A stretch of 64,000 nucleotides of DNA, taken from Acidobacteriota bacterium (GTDB lineage: Bacteria > Acidobacteriota > UBA6911 > RPQK01 > JAJDTT01). Made by a program: the position numbers and the translations under genes. Below the pieces are notes generated by a model, which did not search any database, had not been told where the DNA came from, and saw nothing but the letters and a program-made list of their open reading frames with translations. This document shows, piece by piece, positions 31,275 to 40,413 of the stretch. Positions within the stretch are counted from its first letter, which is position 1. Each line of letters opens with the position of its first letter. The stretch lies in contig CBDCJH010000002.1 of the NCBI GenBank assembly GCA_965217775.1, forward strand, positions 5,728,001-5,792,000. Direction: 5' to 3'.

Positions 31275-32102
31275 CTATATCTTCTCGGCGACGATACCGA
31301 TCACGGGTGGGGCAAACAGGAAGGTGCCCGGATCCCGCTCCCGATCCCGCCACTCGGCTTCAAACGCAAGACGTTCCGACTCCGTCAAGAAGCCGGTTGC
31401 GACCAACTGTGGGACGTAGTTGGAGAAAAACTGCGTCGGCCATTTCCAGAAACTTGTGCCGGGCCTGATGAACCGCACGAGCGGGACCAAGTCGACCAAA
31501 CGGCAACCCGAAGCCGCGACCAGTCCCGGCAGCCGGTCGCCGATGTTGAGATCACCGCCGCTGCTCGCAAAGCTCTCGTAGACCGCCGCGCGGACGCGTT
31601 CGAATGCCGGGCTCCGTGGCAGCAGCGTCATCGCGTCGTAGTTCAGGAAGTCCCAGGCCAACAGGCGGCCACCGGGCCGCAAACCGTTTACGATCCGGTC
31701 GATGACGGTAGCCGGATCGGACAGAAAGCAGAAGAGCCAGCGCGCGAAGGCGCCGTCCAGTGAGGCCGGTTCCAGCCGCAGCATCTCGGCCCGCTCCACC
31801 CGCGCGGTGATTTGCTCGAATCCGAGCCGTTTCGCTTCGCGGGTCACCCTGCCGATGAAACGAACCGACTCGTCGACGGCGAGCACCCGGCCTCCTTCGC
31901 CGACCCGCTCCGCGAGCTCGAGGGTGGCGAATCCCGGTCCGCAGCCGAGATCGAGCAGCCGCGCACCCGGTCCGAATCCGGCACGGTCCCAGAGATCGCG
32001 CGCCGCCCCTGCCCACAATCGGTGTTGAGTCTCCAGGCGCCTTTCCTCCGCCGCATCGGTGCCAAGCAGATACGGTTCGTCCGACTCGAGGTGCTTGTCC
32101 AT
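31275..32102 (-). CDS. Class I SAM-dependent methyltransferase
   Basis: YLLG..E..RL..QH N-terminus, LLDLGCGPG, LRPGG; the longer ORF in the track extends into the MITE and IS. Confidence 0.88.
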   Translation of the reverse strand: MDKHLESDEPYLLGTDAAEERRLETQHRLWAGAARDLWDRAGFGPGARLLDLGCGPGFATLELAERVGEGGRVLAVDESVRFIGRVTREAKRLGFEQITARVERAEMLRLEPASLDGAFARWLFCFLSDPATVIDRIVNGLRPGGRLLAWDFLNYDAMTLLPRSPAFERVRAAVYESFASSGGDLNIGDRLPGLVAASGCRLVDLVPLVRFIRPGTSFWKWPTQFFSNYVPQLVATGFLTESERLAFEAEWRDRERDPGTFLFAPPVIGIVAEKI

Positions 32103-32272
32103 CGTTTCCTTCGCGGCGCTTTCATTGTTCTCGGACAGGCTCCTAGCAGTCCGTGGTGAAAGTCCCGCGAGCACCGAGACCGTTCCTGCGCCCGCCGGAC
32201 AAGGCGCGATGAGGGAGTATCCATGTTGCAAATCTTCCGATTTTCCAGGGATTGTTTCCTCCCTGGTTAGAC

Positions 32273-33226
32273 TCATCCGACCGCCCTGACTGGCCGCGGT
32301 GTCCACACCCGATCCTGGCTCAGCAGGACGTTGGCCAAAATCACCATCTTGCGCATGATCGCCGTGAGCGCCACCTTCGGCGCCTTGCCCCGCTCACGCA
32401 GCTGGCGATACTTCTGGATGTAGTCCGGATTGTGTCGAATGGCGGTGAGGGCGGCCATATACAGCATCCGCCGCACCCGATGCCGGCCCCCGCGGATGAA
32501 GCGACGTCCCTTCCAGGTCCCCGACTCCCGAGCCACCGGCGCCAGACCGGCCAAGCTGGCCACCGCCTTGGAGTCGATCTGTCCCAGTTCCGGCATCAGA
32601 GAGAGCAGGCCCGCGACCGTGACCGGACCCATTCCCGGAATCGAAGTCAGCACTTCGGCTTTGCGCGCCAGCGCCGGATCGGCTTTCAGCAACTTGCGGA
32701 ACTCGCCGTCCAGGGCCCGGATCTGGCGCTCAATCTGAGCCAGCCGCTGTCGCAAATGCCGCTTCACCATCGGGTGGCGCGCGTGGTGGCTCCGGTTGCG
32801 AGCCGCCGTCCGATCCTTCACCAGCCCGTCCCGCGCCGAGATCAGTTCCTCCAACTGGCGCTGCGTGGGCGAGGACACGTCCACACGCCGCAACGGGAGC
32901 GCCTCCCCCATCCGGGCCAGGATCCGGGCATCCACCGCGTCGGTCTTGGCCTCCTGGCCCAGCGCCTGCGCGAACCGCCGCGCCCGCATCGCGTTGACCC
33001 GAGCCAGCGGCAACCGAGCGGCCAGAGCTTCCTCCATCGCCCGGTGCCAGGGGCCCGTGGACTCATACACCACGCACCGGACCTCCGGTCCGATCCAGCG
33101 GGCCAGGGCCTGGAACCCTGCCGTGTCGTTGGGGAACCGCTTCGACCGTCCCGAAGGCCACTCGTGCACGTCCAAATGCGCCTTCGAGATGTCCACACCC
33201 ACCGTCTTTGAGGTATCTTGAGTCAT
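32273..33226 (-). CDS. IS110 family transposase / bridge recombinase
   Basis: DEDD motifs VGVDISK, YESTG, KTDAVDA; SIPGMG, ARESG (catalytic Ser), MRK; AGGAGG upstream. Confidence 0.96.
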   Translation of the reverse strand: MTQDTSKTVGVDISKAHLDVHEWPSGRSKRFPNDTAGFQALARWIGPEVRCVVYESTGPWHRAMEEALAARLPLARVNAMRARRFAQALGQEAKTDAVDARILARMGEALPLRRVDVSSPTQRQLEELISARDGLVKDRTAARNRSHHARHPMVKRHLRQRLAQIERQIRALDGEFRKLLKADPALARKAEVLTSIPGMGPVTVAGLLSLMPELGQIDSKAVASLAGLAPVARESGTWKGRRFIRGGRHRVRRMLYMAALTAIRHNPDYIQKYRQLRERGKAPKVALTAIMRKMVILANVLLSQDRVWTPRPVRAVG

Positions 33227-33234
33227 CTTTCCTT

Positions 33235-33410
33235 CCTCCTGTGCTTGTCGTGCGAGCCTTGACGCTCACGTATCCATTCAGGACGTTGGGAAAGACGGTG
33301 GCGGCCCCACTCCCTCCCGGCCCTTGACGGCCGGCATACATAACGGCCCGACCACCGCCGCCGAGGCGCCTCTGGCCAGAGGCGCCTCGGATGGATCCTC
33401 CCAAAAGATC
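33235..33410 (-). ncRNA. Bridge RNA of the IS110 element
   Basis: Palindrome 33361-33390, then a target loop (GTATGC / GAGGGAG around a CCGGCC-GTCAAG-GGCCGG hairpin) and a donor loop (ATGGATAC / GACAAG around a GAGC-GTCAAG-GCTC hairpin); guides match the target and end junctions; 5' end uncertain. Confidence 0.85.
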
Positions 33411-33660
33411 CCAACCCGTATCGGAATAACCCACCAGAAATCATGCCGGCGCCACCGAGCCAAGCCTGGACGATGGCTGGGTCACGGCCCTGCGCCTGCT
33501 GTCGCCACTGGCGGCGTTGACGGGGGCAGGGGGGGCCGGCCCCCCCTGAGACCCCCCGGATGCAAAGAGACACATACCCACTTGAAATCCCTGAAACGAG
33601 AGCCCCGAGGCCCCCTCGTCACCCGGAACCCGCCTGTGGAAAATCAAAGATTTCCCACAG

Positions 33661-33805
33661 GGTGCTCCCTTTTTGCTGACACCACAATCTGTACCCCCCC
33701 AAGAAGAAAGACAGACAAGAAATAACAGACAAGGGTGCTCCCTTTTTGCTGACACCACAATCTGTACCCCCCAAGAAGAAAGACAGACAAGAAATAACAG
33801 ACAAG
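33661..33805. repeat. Tandem duplication (73 + 72 bp) of the IS110 left terminus
   Basis: 33661-33733 and 33734-33805 are identical except for C7 vs C6; each unit ends in ACAGACA-AG. Confidence 0.92.
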
Positions 33806-33892
33806 CATACCGGGAGTATGCGACCGAGTCGCAACGCAGTCCGCCGGGATGCAGGGACGGTCGAATGCCGTGGCGACTTTTGCCACGGGCTG

Positions 33893-34312
33893 CTAGGTAA
33901 ACGTCGGAATCGCGAGCCCTTCGGATCGTCCGGCGGCGCTGAGCCGACGGTCCAGGGTTGCAAGAGGCAAATGCAAGCGGACCGCCAGTTCGAGATACGT
34001 GGCGTCGTAGACGGAGAGTCGGTGCTCCGTCGCCAGTTCAAGCGCAACATTCCAGACGCGGGACGTGGAAATCGGATCGATTTCGATCGGTAGTGCATCG
34101 AGAATTGCGTGAATTTGGCGCCAATCGCCCCTGGTGATCCGGCCCCGACGAGTCGCGATGAGGAGCACGTTTCCAACTTCGACGGGCCAGAGGGACGGAA
34201 CGAACGCCCTCCCCTCGATCAGCGATTCCCTTAGCTGATTCGTCGATTCCGTGGCCTCGTCGGGAAAGACCCACGCCATGGTCACCGAGCAATCGAGTAC
34301 GAACGCCATCAA
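33893..34312 (-). CDS. vapC: VapC/PIN-domain toxin
   Basis: FVLDCS, WPVEVGN, LSVYDATYLELA, LATLD. Confidence 0.92.
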   Translation of the reverse strand: MMAFVLDCSVTMAWVFPDEATESTNQLRESLIEGRAFVPSLWPVEVGNVLLIATRRGRITRGDWRQIHAILDALPIEIDPISTSRVWNVALELATEHRLSVYDATYLELAVRLHLPLATLDRRLSAAGRSEGLAIPTFT

Positions 34313-34551
34313 TACTTGCGTCCCTCCTCGATCATCTGACGGACAGAGAGGCCAGCCAAGCTATGGGTCTCCTGAAACGCCTTCATACTATCGATCGCAT
34401 CCCGGATTTTTCCGGCGTCACGTGGTCTGAACGGAATCAACTCCGCCACCGGTCGATTGTGCTTCGTGATGACGAATCGTTCCCCCTCCTGCACGCGTTT
34501 CAGCAACCGCGACAGGTTCGTTTTGGCTTCGAATGCGCCCACTTCAGACAT
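34309..34551 (-). CDS. Phd/YefM family antitoxin
   Basis: VGAFEAKTNLSRLL..V..GE..VITKH..PVAELIP; overlaps the toxin start. Confidence 0.92.
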   Translation of the reverse strand: MSEVGAFEAKTNLSRLLKRVQEGERFVITKHNRPVAELIPFRPRDAGKIRDAIDSMKAFQETHSLAGLSVRQMIEEGRKY

Positions 34552-40255: not shown

Positions 40256-40413
40256 CAGTCCGTGGTGAAAGTCGCGCGAGCACCGAGACCGTTCCTGCGC
40301 CCGCCGGACAAGGCGCGATGAGGGAGCATACCGGGAGTATGTGACCGAATCGCAACGCAGTCCGCCGGGATGCAGGGACGGTCGAATGCCGCGACGACTT
40401 TTGCCACGGGCTG
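40256..40413. mobile_element. Intact 158-bp MITE
   Basis: 18-bp imperfect TIRs; 4-bp direct repeat TCAA at 40252-40255 and 40414-40417; contains the empty IS110 target GAGGGAGCATACC. Confidence 0.9.

What the first reader, a model, noticed from the sequence alone, without database searches (positions are those of the whole stretch)
32147..33892. IS110 bridge recombinase programmed against a MITE, with all four RNA guides readable in this window
Seen: comparing the split MITE with the empty copy (40256-40413) gives, on the element strand, target CGGTATG-CT-CCCTC and circular donor junction ATGGATA-CT-TGTC. Upstream of the intact recombinase are two loops. The target loop has GTATGC (33339-33334; 6 of 8 positions of the left target) and GAGGGAG (33316-33310; exact complement of core plus right target). 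The donor loop has ATGGATAC (33277-33270; 8/8) and GACAAG (33249-33244; 6/6). Both internal hairpins share the loop GTCAAG, and the outer stems GGCGGTGG/CCACCGTC and TCCTG/CAGGA close. Known: IS621-type bridge RNAs use this architecture, a CT core, and target REP repeats. Inferred: this element targets another mobile element, a TIR/TSD-bearing MITE, which gives it a self-multiplying safe site. The MITE's TIRs remain intact, so the composite might be moved by the MITE's own transposase. It is also a candidate new programmable recombinase with a 7-nt right-target match.
Basis: partly seen in the sequence, partly recalled or inferred. Interest (0 to 1): 0.88.

Follow-up and report, generated by a model that had tools for sequence, protein, structure and literature searches.

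The report
RNA-guided IS110 element aimed at a MITE
This is an IS110-family insertion sequence whose own guide RNA is matched to a 14-base site found only inside a small, abundant transposon remnant (a MITE), so it is a clear natural case of guide retargeting but a member of an already known system.

Summary
Window 33805-32218 (- strand) is a 1588-bp IS110-group element. It has a 317-aa DEDD/Transposase_20 recombinase and a two-loop RNA upstream of it, and it splits a 158-bp MITE.

- The genome holds 4 near-identical IS copies. All 4 sit at the same site and in the same orientation in four different MITE copies.
- The 14-mer CGGTATG-CT-CCCTC occurs 83 times in the genome, and all 83 lie in MITEs (213 full-length copies).
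- A second genome carries an 88%-identical IS at the same MITE site.
- Relatives in the genus keep the donor ends and donor guides but sit in REP-like hairpin arrays. Their left and right target guides change with their flanks.
- More distant relatives change the left donor guide together with the right end.
- RNA-library contigs cover the guide region.

Nothing supports spread of the composite by the MITE's transposase: the host MITEs differ more from each other than the IS copies do. A 7-nt right target guide is not new. This is a new member of a known kind, with a new class of target. IS1111-group elements that target Tn21 inverted repeats are a precedent.

The parts
33806..33892 (-). 5' half of the split MITE (87 bp): terminal inverted repeat CAGCCCGTGGCAAAAGTC, an internal hairpin GCATAC-TCCCG-GTATGC, and the left target CGGTATG at 33812-33806
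33804..33805 (-). core dinucleotide CT at the left junction
33662..33805 (-). two tandem 72-bp units of the left-end terminus; present in 2 of the 4 copies, and each unit starts with CTTGTCTG
   Evidence: a contig of DNA run X1 shows the form lacking 72 bp
33227..33803 (-). long non-coding left end upstream of the recombinase gene (IS110-type layout)
33517..33711 (-). interior of the left end; 75-82% identical to a multi-copy repeat of related genomes that lies just 3' of an IS3-family (rve) transposase gene
33361..33390 (-). 13-bp GC-rich hairpin directly before the bridge RNA; a comparable hairpin stands there in relatives
33294..33359 (-). target-binding loop: outer stem GGCGGTGG/CCACCGTC, left target guide GTATGC(C) at 33339-33333, inner hairpin CGGCC-GTCAAG-GGCCG, right target guide GAGGGAG at 33316-33310
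33237..33283 (-). donor-binding loop: outer stem TCCTG/CAGGA, left donor guide ATGGATAC at 33277-33270, inner hairpin GTGAGC-GTCAAG-GCTCGC, right donor guide GACAAG at 33249-33244
32273..33226 (-). recombinase gene, 317 aa: DEDD_Tnp_IS110 plus Transposase_20; D12, E55, D96, D99 and S235 align with the IS621 catalytic residues
32218..32272 (-). short right end (55 bp) ending in ATGGATA; it holds TTGCAA (32231-32226), a possible -35 box of a promoter formed only in the circular form
   Evidence: the promoter reading is an inference by analogy with IS621 (PMC11208160)
32147..32217 (-). 3' half of the split MITE (71 bp), starting with core CT (32217-32216) and right target CCCTC (32215-32211)
40256..40413 (-). 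uninterrupted MITE copy with target-site duplication TTGA; intact target CGGTATG-CT-CCCTC at 40333-40320

Best explanation
The element is an IS110-group insertion sequence that moves by bridge-RNA (seekRNA)-guided recombination.

Inferred steps, by homology with IS621:
- It excises as a circle that joins ...ATGGATA-CT-TGTC...
- A roughly 150-nt RNA encoded just upstream of the recombinase gene folds into two loops.
- The donor loop (ATGGATAC / GACAAG) pairs with the two strands of the circle junction.
- The target loop (GTATGC / GAGGGAG) pairs with the two strands of GTATG-CT-CCCTC.
- The DEDD/Ser recombinase exchanges strands at the CT core.

Shown by sequence:
- That target occurs in this genome only inside one subfamily of a 158-bp IS5/IS1182-derived MITE, next to a 6-bp hairpin. 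The element therefore lands only in MITE copies, always in one orientation.
- Its closest relatives use the same donor ends but sit at REP-like hairpin repeats (GGCGGC-aagaaa-GCCGCCG-CT-CCCAT).
- The MITE specificity therefore arose by natural rewriting of about five bases of the left target guide. The G-CT-CCC context and the position 3' of a hairpin were kept.
For: **Recombinase**
- Both Pfam domains of the family are present.
- IS621 is hit at E = 8e-28 (PDB 8wt6), and D12, E55, D96, D99 and S235-G236 align with D11, E60, D102, D105 and S241-G242 (residue numbers from PMC11208158).

**Layout**
- The non-coding left end is 577 bp here (505 bp in the copies without the duplication) and the right end is 55 bp. 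There are no terminal inverted repeats, and CT stands at both junctions.

**RNA structure**
- The single-sequence fold has z = -5.05.
- The consensus fold of 12 relatives keeps both outer stems and the donor hairpin: 29 pairs, 6 of them with compensatory changes.

**Site use**
- 4 of 4 copies in the genome are at the same MITE position and orientation, with different flanks and target-site duplications.
- In the MAG, two copies are at the same site, and a third is too on the one side visible.
- 83 of 83 exact 14-mers and 89 of 89 copies of the 12-mer GTATGCTCCCTC lie inside MITE hits.

**Target-guide covariation**
- Over 13 insertion rows and 9 guide sets, cognate guides match 10.1 of 12 non-core positions on average, against 6.4 of 12 for non-cognate guides.
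- Single-base examples: ACCGACG against ACCGCCG within genome G260, and GACGCCG (G200) against CACGCCG (G088). Each is matched by its own flank.

**Donor-guide covariation**
- Relatives at 44% identity have the left donor guide ACGGATGC and right ends ACGGATG-CT, in place of ATGGATAC and ATGGATA-CT.

**RNA evidence**
- Contigs from two sponge metatranscriptome runs of one study cover the gene and the guide region. One 156-nt contig spans 33397-33242.
Against: - There is no experiment.
- No joint of the circular form was seen in the four runs laid. These were contigs, which drop rare forms.
- No sigma-70 consensus promoter is found in the linear element.
- The left target guide leaves left-target positions 1-2 and the second core base unpaired. 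In IS621 screens mismatches were poorly tolerated (PMC11208160).
- Only 4 of 87 perfect sites (83 empty plus 4 occupied) are occupied.
- Some relatives sit at sites that match their right target guide poorly, at 2-3 of 5 positions.
- The relatives are kin and their REP-like targets resemble each other, so non-cognate scores reach 11 of 12.
- RNA libraries can carry DNA, and both RNA runs come from one study.
Confidence: 0.85

Rival explanations
1. The IS-in-MITE composite multiplied as one unit, moved by the MITE's own IS5/IS1182-type transposase acting on the intact inverted repeats. On this reading the shared position reflects a single original insertion, not repeated targeting.
For: - The MITE inverted repeats and 4-bp duplications are intact around all four composites.
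- Two identical 1475-bp elements with the same inverted repeats and a DUF772/DDE transposase exist in the genome.
Against: - The host MITEs differ from each other at 3-4 of 158 bases, while the IS bodies differ at 1-4 of 1516-1588.
- Each host has at least 18 empty MITE copies closer to it than any other host. Host D is identical to two empty copies.
- In the MAG the IS sits in MITE subtypes with other sequence after CCCTC.
- The parent transposase gene appears frameshifted.
Confidence: 0.03
2. Site choice is made by the protein recognising DNA shape (the hairpin plus the CT core). The RNA matches are then a by-product of the element having copied flanking sequence, or chance.
For: - The left target is the 3' arm of a hairpin both in the MITE (GCATAC-TCCCG-GTATGC) and in the REP-like targets of relatives.
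- A preprint reports a target stem-loop as a second specificity determinant for ISPpu10 (10.64898/2026.03.19.712850, abstract only).
Against: - The guides lie about 450 nt inside the element, not at its ends.
- They change base for base with the flanks in several lineages.
- 0 of 200,000 shuffles reproduce the four matches.
- The family mechanism is established for IS621 (PMC11208160, PMC11208158).
- A structural gate would add to RNA guidance, not replace it.
Confidence: 0.05
3. The guides are genuine but the element is no longer mobile in this strain. The four copies are then relics of a past burst.
For: - Only 4 of 87 perfect sites are filled.
- No circle joint was seen.
- There is no consensus promoter.
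- About 430 nt of extra sequence, including an IS3-end fragment and in two copies a 72-bp duplication, separates the left terminus from the RNA.
Against: - The copies are 99.7-99.9% identical.
- All four encode the identical intact 317-aa protein.
- The catalytic residues are intact.
- Contigs from RNA libraries cover the gene and guide region but not 33588-33773, which the DNA runs do cover.
Confidence: 0.15

Closest known systems
IS621 (E. coli), the reference bridge-RNA recombinase of the IS110 group
   Same: - Same two protein domains and same catalytic D-E-D-D plus Ser.
- The guide RNA is encoded upstream of the gene.
- The target loop comes first and the donor loop second.
- The left guides have the sense of the top strand; the right guides are complementary to it.
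- CT core.
- Inserts next to a hairpin in a dispersed repeat (PMC11208160, passages).
   Different: - The protein match is distant (phmmer E = 8e-28; identity not computed).
- The right target guide is 7 nt here, against 4 in IS621.
- The second core base of the left target guide is unpaired.
- The left end is 505-577 bp and carries foreign sequence ahead of the RNA.
- The target is the body of a MITE with inverted repeats and target-site duplications, not a REP.
[quoted passage not shown]
   Same: A DEDD-recombinase insertion sequence whose fixed target lies inside another transposable element (title of Partridge and Hall 2003 as cited in PMC11187229; the IS4321 target logo is mentioned there).
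   Different: - They belong to the IS1111 group: the guide RNA is downstream of the gene and there are subterminal inverted repeats.
- Their target is the terminal repeat itself, so insertion would affect the host transposon's end.
- Here the site is in the middle of the MITE and both inverted repeats stay intact.
ISEc11 / ISXne4, a described case of natural reprogramming
   Same: Close relatives keep the stems of the guide RNA but have different target-matching bases and sit at different sites (PMC11187229, passages). The genus series found here shows the same thing.
   Different: That pair is in the IS1111 group and comprises two elements. Here at least eight guide variants were found across five genomes of one genus and one of the same order, and two more distant ones at 44% identity. 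One of the variants is aimed at a MITE.
ISPpu10 / ISPpu9 (Pseudomonas putida)
   Same: IS110-family elements that insert into REP or intergenic stem-loop repeats. For ISPpu10 a stem-loop 5' of the paired bases is reported to add specificity (preprint abstract). ISPpu9 forms circles and has a non-autonomous derivative (PMC12288879, passages).
   Different: Their targets are REP-type repeats of the host. In the passages I read, no MITE with inverted repeats and target-site duplications is involved as a target.

Membership tests
IS110 family, IS110 group (bridge-RNA / seekRNA guided insertion sequences) | Recombinase with an N-terminal DEDD RuvC-like domain and a C-terminal Transposase_20 (Tnp) domain | tested here: met
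   PF01548 at E = 1.5e-19 (residues 9-147) and PF02371 at E = 8.1e-21 (residues 191-273). IS621 and ISCro4 structures are hit at E about 1e-27.
IS110 family, IS110 group (bridge-RNA / seekRNA guided insertion sequences) | Catalytic D, E, D, D and the serine nucleophile followed by glycine | tested here: met
   D12, E55, D96, D99 and S235-G236 align with IS621 D11, E60, D102, D105 and S241-G242 (numbering from PMC11208158; the PDB chain carries 2 extra N-terminal residues).
IS110 family, IS110 group (bridge-RNA / seekRNA guided insertion sequences) | Long non-coding region upstream of the gene (downstream in the IS1111 group), with no subterminal inverted repeats | tested here: met
   The left end is 577 bp (505 bp without the duplication) and the right end 55 bp. 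The criterion is from PMC11187229. I did not run a formal inverted-repeat search on the ends; none is visible.
IS110 family, IS110 group (bridge-RNA / seekRNA guided insertion sequences) | A 2-bp core (CT) present at both junctions and once in the empty site | tested here: met
   CT at 33805-33804 and 32217-32216, and a single CT in the empty MITE at 40326-40325. The same holds in all 4 copies.
IS110 family, IS110 group (bridge-RNA / seekRNA guided insertion sequences) | RNA with two internal loops, target-binding loop first and donor-binding loop second | tested here: met
   Single-sequence fold. Consensus fold of 12 sequences. The inner hairpin of the target loop was not recovered in the consensus because its length varies. 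No Rfam family matched.
IS110 family, IS110 group (bridge-RNA / seekRNA guided insertion sequences) | Left guides identical to the top strand and right guides complementary to it, each reaching into the core, for both target and donor | tested here: met
   Left target guide: 5 of 7 non-core bases plus the first core base. Right target guide 7 of 7. Left donor guide 8 of 8. Right donor guide 6 of 6. The rule is from PMC11208160.
IS110 family, IS110 group (bridge-RNA / seekRNA guided insertion sequences) | Guides covary with target and donor among relatives | tested here: met
   Target guides: (10.1 against 6.4 of 12). Left donor guide: (ACGGATGC with right end ACGGATG). The right donor guide is nearly invariant, so it is only weakly tested.
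IS110 family, IS110 group (bridge-RNA / seekRNA guided insertion sequences) | Handshake bases next to the right guides that pair with position 7 of the other DNA | tested here: inconclusive
   U follows the right target guide in 10 of the 12 aligned sequences, including all nine that carry the ATGGATA donor (donor position 7 is A there). C follows the right donor guide in those same nine (target position 7 is G). I placed these positions by analogy with the description in PMC11208158, not by a structural alignment.
IS110 family, IS110 group (bridge-RNA / seekRNA guided insertion sequences) | Circular intermediate whose right-end/left-end junction forms the promoter for the RNA | tested here: inconclusive
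   No circle joint was seen in the contigs of 4 runs. By eye the junction would read TTGCAA-17 nt-TATTTC, a weak -10 box. No consensus promoter is found in the linear form.
IS110 family, IS110 group (bridge-RNA / seekRNA guided insertion sequences) | Recombination depends on the RNA and can be reprogrammed | not testable with these tools
   This needs a plasmid or in vitro recombination assay.
MITE (non-autonomous derivative of a DDE insertion sequence) | Short, non-coding, terminal inverted repeats, target-site duplication, many copies | tested here: met
   The element is 158 bp with inverted repeats CAGCCCGTGGCAAAAGTC / CAGTCCGTGGTGAAAGTC. Its 4-bp duplications are CTAG, TTAA, TTAC and TTGA; one copy has the imperfect pair TCGG/CCGG. 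There are 213 full-length copies among 274 blast hits. It is present in 8 of 8 other genomes of the genus.
MITE (non-autonomous derivative of a DDE insertion sequence) | An autonomous partner with the same ends | tested here: met
   Two identical 1475-bp elements (C2 310455-311929 and 316892-318366) share the inverted repeats. Their gene carries DUF772 (E = 1.5e-17) and weak DDE_Tnp_1 / DDE_Tnp_1_6 matches that are split between two frames. Whether this transposase is active is unknown.

The most novel reading that the evidence does not exclude
A two-level parasitism with consequences for both elements.

The bridge recombinase has tied its fate to one MITE subfamily, whose multiplication creates new landing sites. 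The largest MITE subfamily (87 of 213 copies) reads CA-CCCGA instead of CT-CCCTC and cannot be hit. That could reflect escape from, or selection by, the insertion sequence.

The intact inverted repeats would also give the insertion sequence a second, RNA-independent way to move, through the MITE's IS5/IS1182-type transposase.

In addition, the conserved placement of the left target on the 3' arm of a hairpin, in both REP-like and MITE targets, would mean that natural retargeting is confined to sites that pass a structural gate.
Probability: 0.12. Interest if true: 0.6.

Novelty: new member of a known kind. Interest (0 to 1): 0.4.

Why it matters
The finding adds no new mechanism. It does offer a compact natural series. 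Within one genus, one conserved donor module is combined with at least eight different target loops, and each loop is matched to its own insertion sites. One of them has been redirected from REP-like hairpins to the interior of a MITE.

That is useful as ground truth for three questions: which guide positions matter in nature, how long right target guides are used, and whether a hairpin next to the target is required.

It also shows that RNA-guided insertion sequences can use another transposon's offspring as harmless landing pads, in a little-studied, apparently sponge-associated Acidobacteriota lineage.

As a candidate tool it is one more orthologue, with no evident advantage.

Tried and rejected
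**Searches and scans that gave nothing**
- Rfam 15 at E up to 1 on 31500-34500 gave only three chance-level hits and no bridge-RNA family.
- The promoter scan found 0 sigma-70-like sites in 32100-33950.
- The search for related loci with the single protein returned only 8 loci. Of these, 3 were close (the MAG), 1 was cut at the contig end before the RNA, and 4 were too distant to align.

**Reads**
- No circle joint was seen in the contigs.
- The contigs of the RNA libraries leave 33588-33773 and 32720-32781 uncovered. These gaps, and the absence of a circle joint, are not evidence of absence.
- The joints that skip about 1600-1750 bases, with other letters between, are simply other MITE copies and subtypes, not precise excision.

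**Rows that fit less well**
- In the register of alignment A1, G136 scores 2 of 7 for the left guide. Sliding it one column, by eye, gives 5 of 7.
- Copy E of the second IS110 family in this genome matches its right guide at only 2 of 5 positions.
- The third IS110 gene of the genome (C2 4367322-4368206, 47% identity) has an RNA-like upstream region but no recognisable right end, so it was left out of the guide table.
- L017 and L018 were also left out of that table and treated separately.

**Literature**
- Three searches: 'IS110' + 'miniature inverted-repeat' + 'target' + 'inserted' (7 papers); 'IS110 family' + 'MITE' (18 papers); 'bridge RNA' + 'MITE' (3 papers).
- I opened passages of four of these papers. 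None describes an IS110-family element aimed at a MITE.
- The library lacks most subscription journals and ISfinder.
Supplementary Data 2 of PMC11208160 (target motifs per guide pair) could hold such cases.
- The half-match recombination preprint (10.64898/2026.08.31.748434) was seen only in the search listing.

**Rejected reading**
- That the MITE halves are the true ends of the IS. This fails because 213 empty copies exist and relatives with the same ends sit elsewhere.
Full report
**What is there**

On the - strand of the window, a 158-bp MITE (33892-32147) is split by a 1588-bp element (33805-32218, counting one copy of the CT core). The left junction reads CGGTATG-CT-TGTC and the right junction ATGGATA-CT-CCCTC. 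An uninterrupted MITE copy at 40413-40256 reads CGGTATG-CT-CCCTC at the corresponding place.

The element encodes a 317-aa protein (33226-32273) with the two Pfam domains of IS110-family recombinases. Its closest solved relatives are the ISCro4 and IS621 recombinases (E about 1e-27). In the alignment with IS621, D12, E55, D96, D99 and S235-G236 stand opposite D11, E60, D102, D105 and S241-G242. Those are the residues Hiraizumi et al. give as the composite active site (PMC11208158, passages).

The long non-coding part lies upstream of the gene and the right end is only 55 bp. This is the IS110-type layout rather than the IS1111-type layout (criterion from PMC11187229, passages).

Every string is at the stated coordinates. 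The minimum-free-energy fold of 33400-33227 gives a 13-bp hairpin followed by two stem-loops with large internal loops and inner hairpins. No shuffle of 200 folded as well, and z = -5.05.

In the first loop, the 5' side carries GTATGC(C), in the sense of the target's top strand. The 3' side carries GAGGGAG, the complement of CT-CCCTC. In the second loop, the 5' side carries ATGGATAC (right end plus the first core base) and the 3' side GACAAG (the complement of CT-TGTC). This is the arrangement Durrant et al. describe for IS621: the left guides pair with the bottom strand, the right guides with the top strand, and the core is included in each (PMC11208160, passages).

None of 200,000 shuffles of the left end holds the four strings in order.

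**Does every copy sit at the same place?**

The genome (6.43 Mb, 2 contigs) has four copies encoding identical proteins. All four lie at the same position and in the same orientation of four different MITE copies, with different flanks and 4-bp duplications.

The MITE family has 213 full-length copies among 274 blast hits. The exact 14-mer occurs 83 times in the genome, and all 83 lie inside MITE hits. The 12-mer that the RNA can actually pair with, GTATGCTCCCTC, occurs 89 times, again all inside MITEs.

Only part of the family carries the site. The largest subtype (87 copies) reads CA-CCCGA there, and about 20 copies read CT-CCCGA.

A named Acidobacteriota MAG carries an element with 88% protein identity at the same MITE site. 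Two of its loci show both junctions, with other flanks. A third shows the right junction at a contig end. I did not examine whether these two data sets overlap, so I count them as one extra genome at most.

**Covariation**

A search of 401 genomes of the phylum found relatives in 18, this genome included.

The present genome has a second IS110 family (four copies, 56% identity). Three genomes of the genus (G260, G200, G088) and one of the same order (G136) also carry relatives. All of these have the same ends (ATGGATA-CT-TGTC) and the same donor guides, but they sit in arrays of a REP-like hairpin, GGCGGC-aagaaa-GCCGCCG-CT-CCCAT.

Their target loops differ, and the differences track the flanks:

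| Genome | Left target guide | Flank (left target, core, right target) | Right target guide |
|---|---|---|---|
| G260 (one copy) | ACCGACGC | ACCGACG-CT | not given |
| G260 (other copies) | ACCGCCGC | (A/G)CCGCCG-CT | not given |
| G200 | GACGCCGCT | GACGCCG-CT-CCAGA | TCTGGAG |
| G088 | CACGCCGCT | CACGCCG-CT | not given |
| G136 | GGTCGCT | GGTCG-CT-CCCGT | ACGGGAG |

Over 13 insertion rows and 9 guide sets, cognate guides match 10.1 of 12 non-core positions on average and non-cognate guides 6.4.

The fit is not perfect. Several right guides match only 2-4 of 5 positions, and one left guide needs a one-column shift of the alignment. The lineages are also related to each other, which inflates the non-cognate scores.

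Two relatives at 44% identity change the donor side as well. Their left donor guide is ACGGATGC and their right ends are ACGGATG-CT. Their right target guide GAGCGAG matches CT-CGCTC at 5 of 5 non-core bases in one and CT-CTCTC at 4 of 5 in the other. Their left guide CACTCCG matches the flank at 7 of 7.

The consensus fold of the 12 aligned RNA regions keeps both outer stems and the donor hairpin. It has 29 pairs, 6 of them with compensatory changes.

**How the retargeting probably happened (inference)**

In both kinds of target, the left target is the 3' arm of a hairpin and is followed by G-CT-CCC. In the MITE the hairpin is GCATAC-TCCCG-GTATGC. Moving from the REP-like repeat to the MITE therefore needed changes in about five bases of the left guide, while the right guide stayed close to the family's usual form.

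A preprint reports that a stem-loop next to the paired bases is a second specificity determinant for ISPpu10 (abstract only). The pattern here would fit that, but I did not test it.

The MITE is present in 8 of 8 other genomes of the genus and barely present in the sister genus (one weak hit in 6). The MITE-directed IS was found only in this genome, in G407 and in the named MAG. The MITE is therefore the older and wider element.

**The composite-mobilisation idea**

An autonomous partner exists. Two identical 1475-bp elements share the MITE's inverted repeats. Their gene has a DUF772 domain and weak DDE matches, and its C-terminal part lies in another frame.

But the four host MITEs differ from one another at 3-4 of 158 bases, whereas the IS bodies differ at 1-4 of 1516-1588. 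Each host also has at least 18 empty MITEs closer to it than any other host. The four copies are therefore four separate insertions into pre-existing MITEs. Mobilisation of a composite remains untested and is not needed to explain what is seen.

**Expression**

Eleven public runs hold at least half of the sampled words of this stretch. Four runs labelled as sponge metatranscriptomes, all from one study, hold 46-65% of them.

I laid two RNA-library and two DNA runs; all are kept as contigs. The RNA-library contigs cover most of the gene and the guide region. One contig spans 33397-33242 at a higher depth than the gene contigs of the same run, and another spans 33544-33058.

Contigs cannot give RNA ends or strand, and RNA libraries can hold DNA. 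This is therefore only a hint that the region is transcribed. No joint of the circular form appeared.

**Comparison with what is known, and novelty**

The element passes every membership feature of the IS110 group that sequence can test. The circle, the junction promoter and RNA dependence remain untested.

Several aspects are already described:
- natural reprogramming (ISEc11 and ISXne4, PMC11187229)
- right target guides longer than the 4 nt of IS621 (PMC11208160)
- insertion into dispersed repeats
- an IS1111-group precedent for targeting another transposon (IS4321/IS5075 at Tn21 inverted repeats, cited in PMC11187229)

I found no paper describing an IS110-family element aimed at the body of a MITE. 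This rests on three searches and four papers opened, in a library without most subscription journals and with supplements closed.

I therefore class it as a new member of a known kind, with a new class of target. It is of moderate interest, mainly as a clean natural series of guide and target pairs.

**Verdict**

- Observation: confirmed.
- Interpretation: supported in its core.
- Not supported: the composite-mobilisation suggestion and the claimed novelty of the 7-nt guide.
- Confidence in the mechanism: 0.85.
- Interest: 0.4.

Noticed in passing
window 33805-33662 (-); also genome copy C2 6039621-6041203: Two of the four IS copies carry a 72-bp tandem duplication of the left-end terminus. 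The second unit starts at a CT, and the undupli­cated sequence at that point reads CACC-CT-GTGG. The duplication could therefore be a product of recombination at a half-matching CT site, as recent preprints describe for IS110 elements (listing and abstract only).
   Followed up: partly
window about 33711-33517 (-); loci L043, L048, L049, L053, L044, L046: The interior of the IS left end is 75-82% identical to a repeat present in many copies in related genomes. In L043 this repeat lies about 80-270 nt 3' of an IS3-family (rve, HTH_21) transposase gene, in the opposite orientation. The long left end thus seems to have captured a fragment of another insertion sequence.
   Followed up: partly
genome C2 1161534-1162493, 2744706-2745662, 2679024-2679983, 4662332-4663291: A second IS110 family (56% identity, four copies) has the same donor ends, a short 168-nt left end and REP-like hairpin arrays as target. 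Two of the copies diverge together about 45 nt before the right end, so they are probably truncated or interrupted.
   Followed up: partly
genome C2 4367322-4368206 (locus L003): A third, single-copy IS110 gene (47% identity) has a bridge-RNA-like upstream region but no recognisable right end. It is followed by a fragment of the hairpin that precedes the RNA of the second family, and then by an intact MITE.
   Followed up: no
genome C2 310455-311929 and 316892-318366 (locus L001): These are two 100% identical copies of the MITE's 1475-bp parent, lying 6.4 kb apart in direct orientation. The transposase reading frame appears split, with DUF772/DDE_Tnp_1 in one frame and the DDE_Tnp_1_6 tail in another. 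This could be a composite transposon or a recent duplication.
   Followed up: partly
genome-wide MITE copies: The MITE family has subtypes at the IS target. 87 of 213 copies read CA-CCCGA, about 20 read CT-CCCGA, and the rest read CT-CCCTC with four different continuations. A short variant of about 98 bp (query positions 1-52 plus 107-158) lacks the target region altogether.
   Followed up: no
loci L013 (G200), L015 and L032 (G088): Here the relatives have left ends of 773-843 nt. Each holds a left-end start like that of the MITE-directed IS, a second copy of the donor-loop sequence and a degenerate right-end-like stretch (TTTGCAA...CTGGAGA-CT) about 100 nt before the functional-looking RNA. 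These look like fused or expanded loci.
   Followed up: partly
window 33893-33896 and ORF 33893..34312 (-): The MITE's duplication CTAG contains the stop codon of the 139-aa upstream open reading frame, so the MITE abuts that gene's end exactly. I did not annotate the gene.
   Followed up: no
window 40500-40470 (-): A solitary MITE right-end-like stretch (...GGGACTCTTACCACGGACTG) lies about 60 bp from the intact MITE.
   Followed up: no
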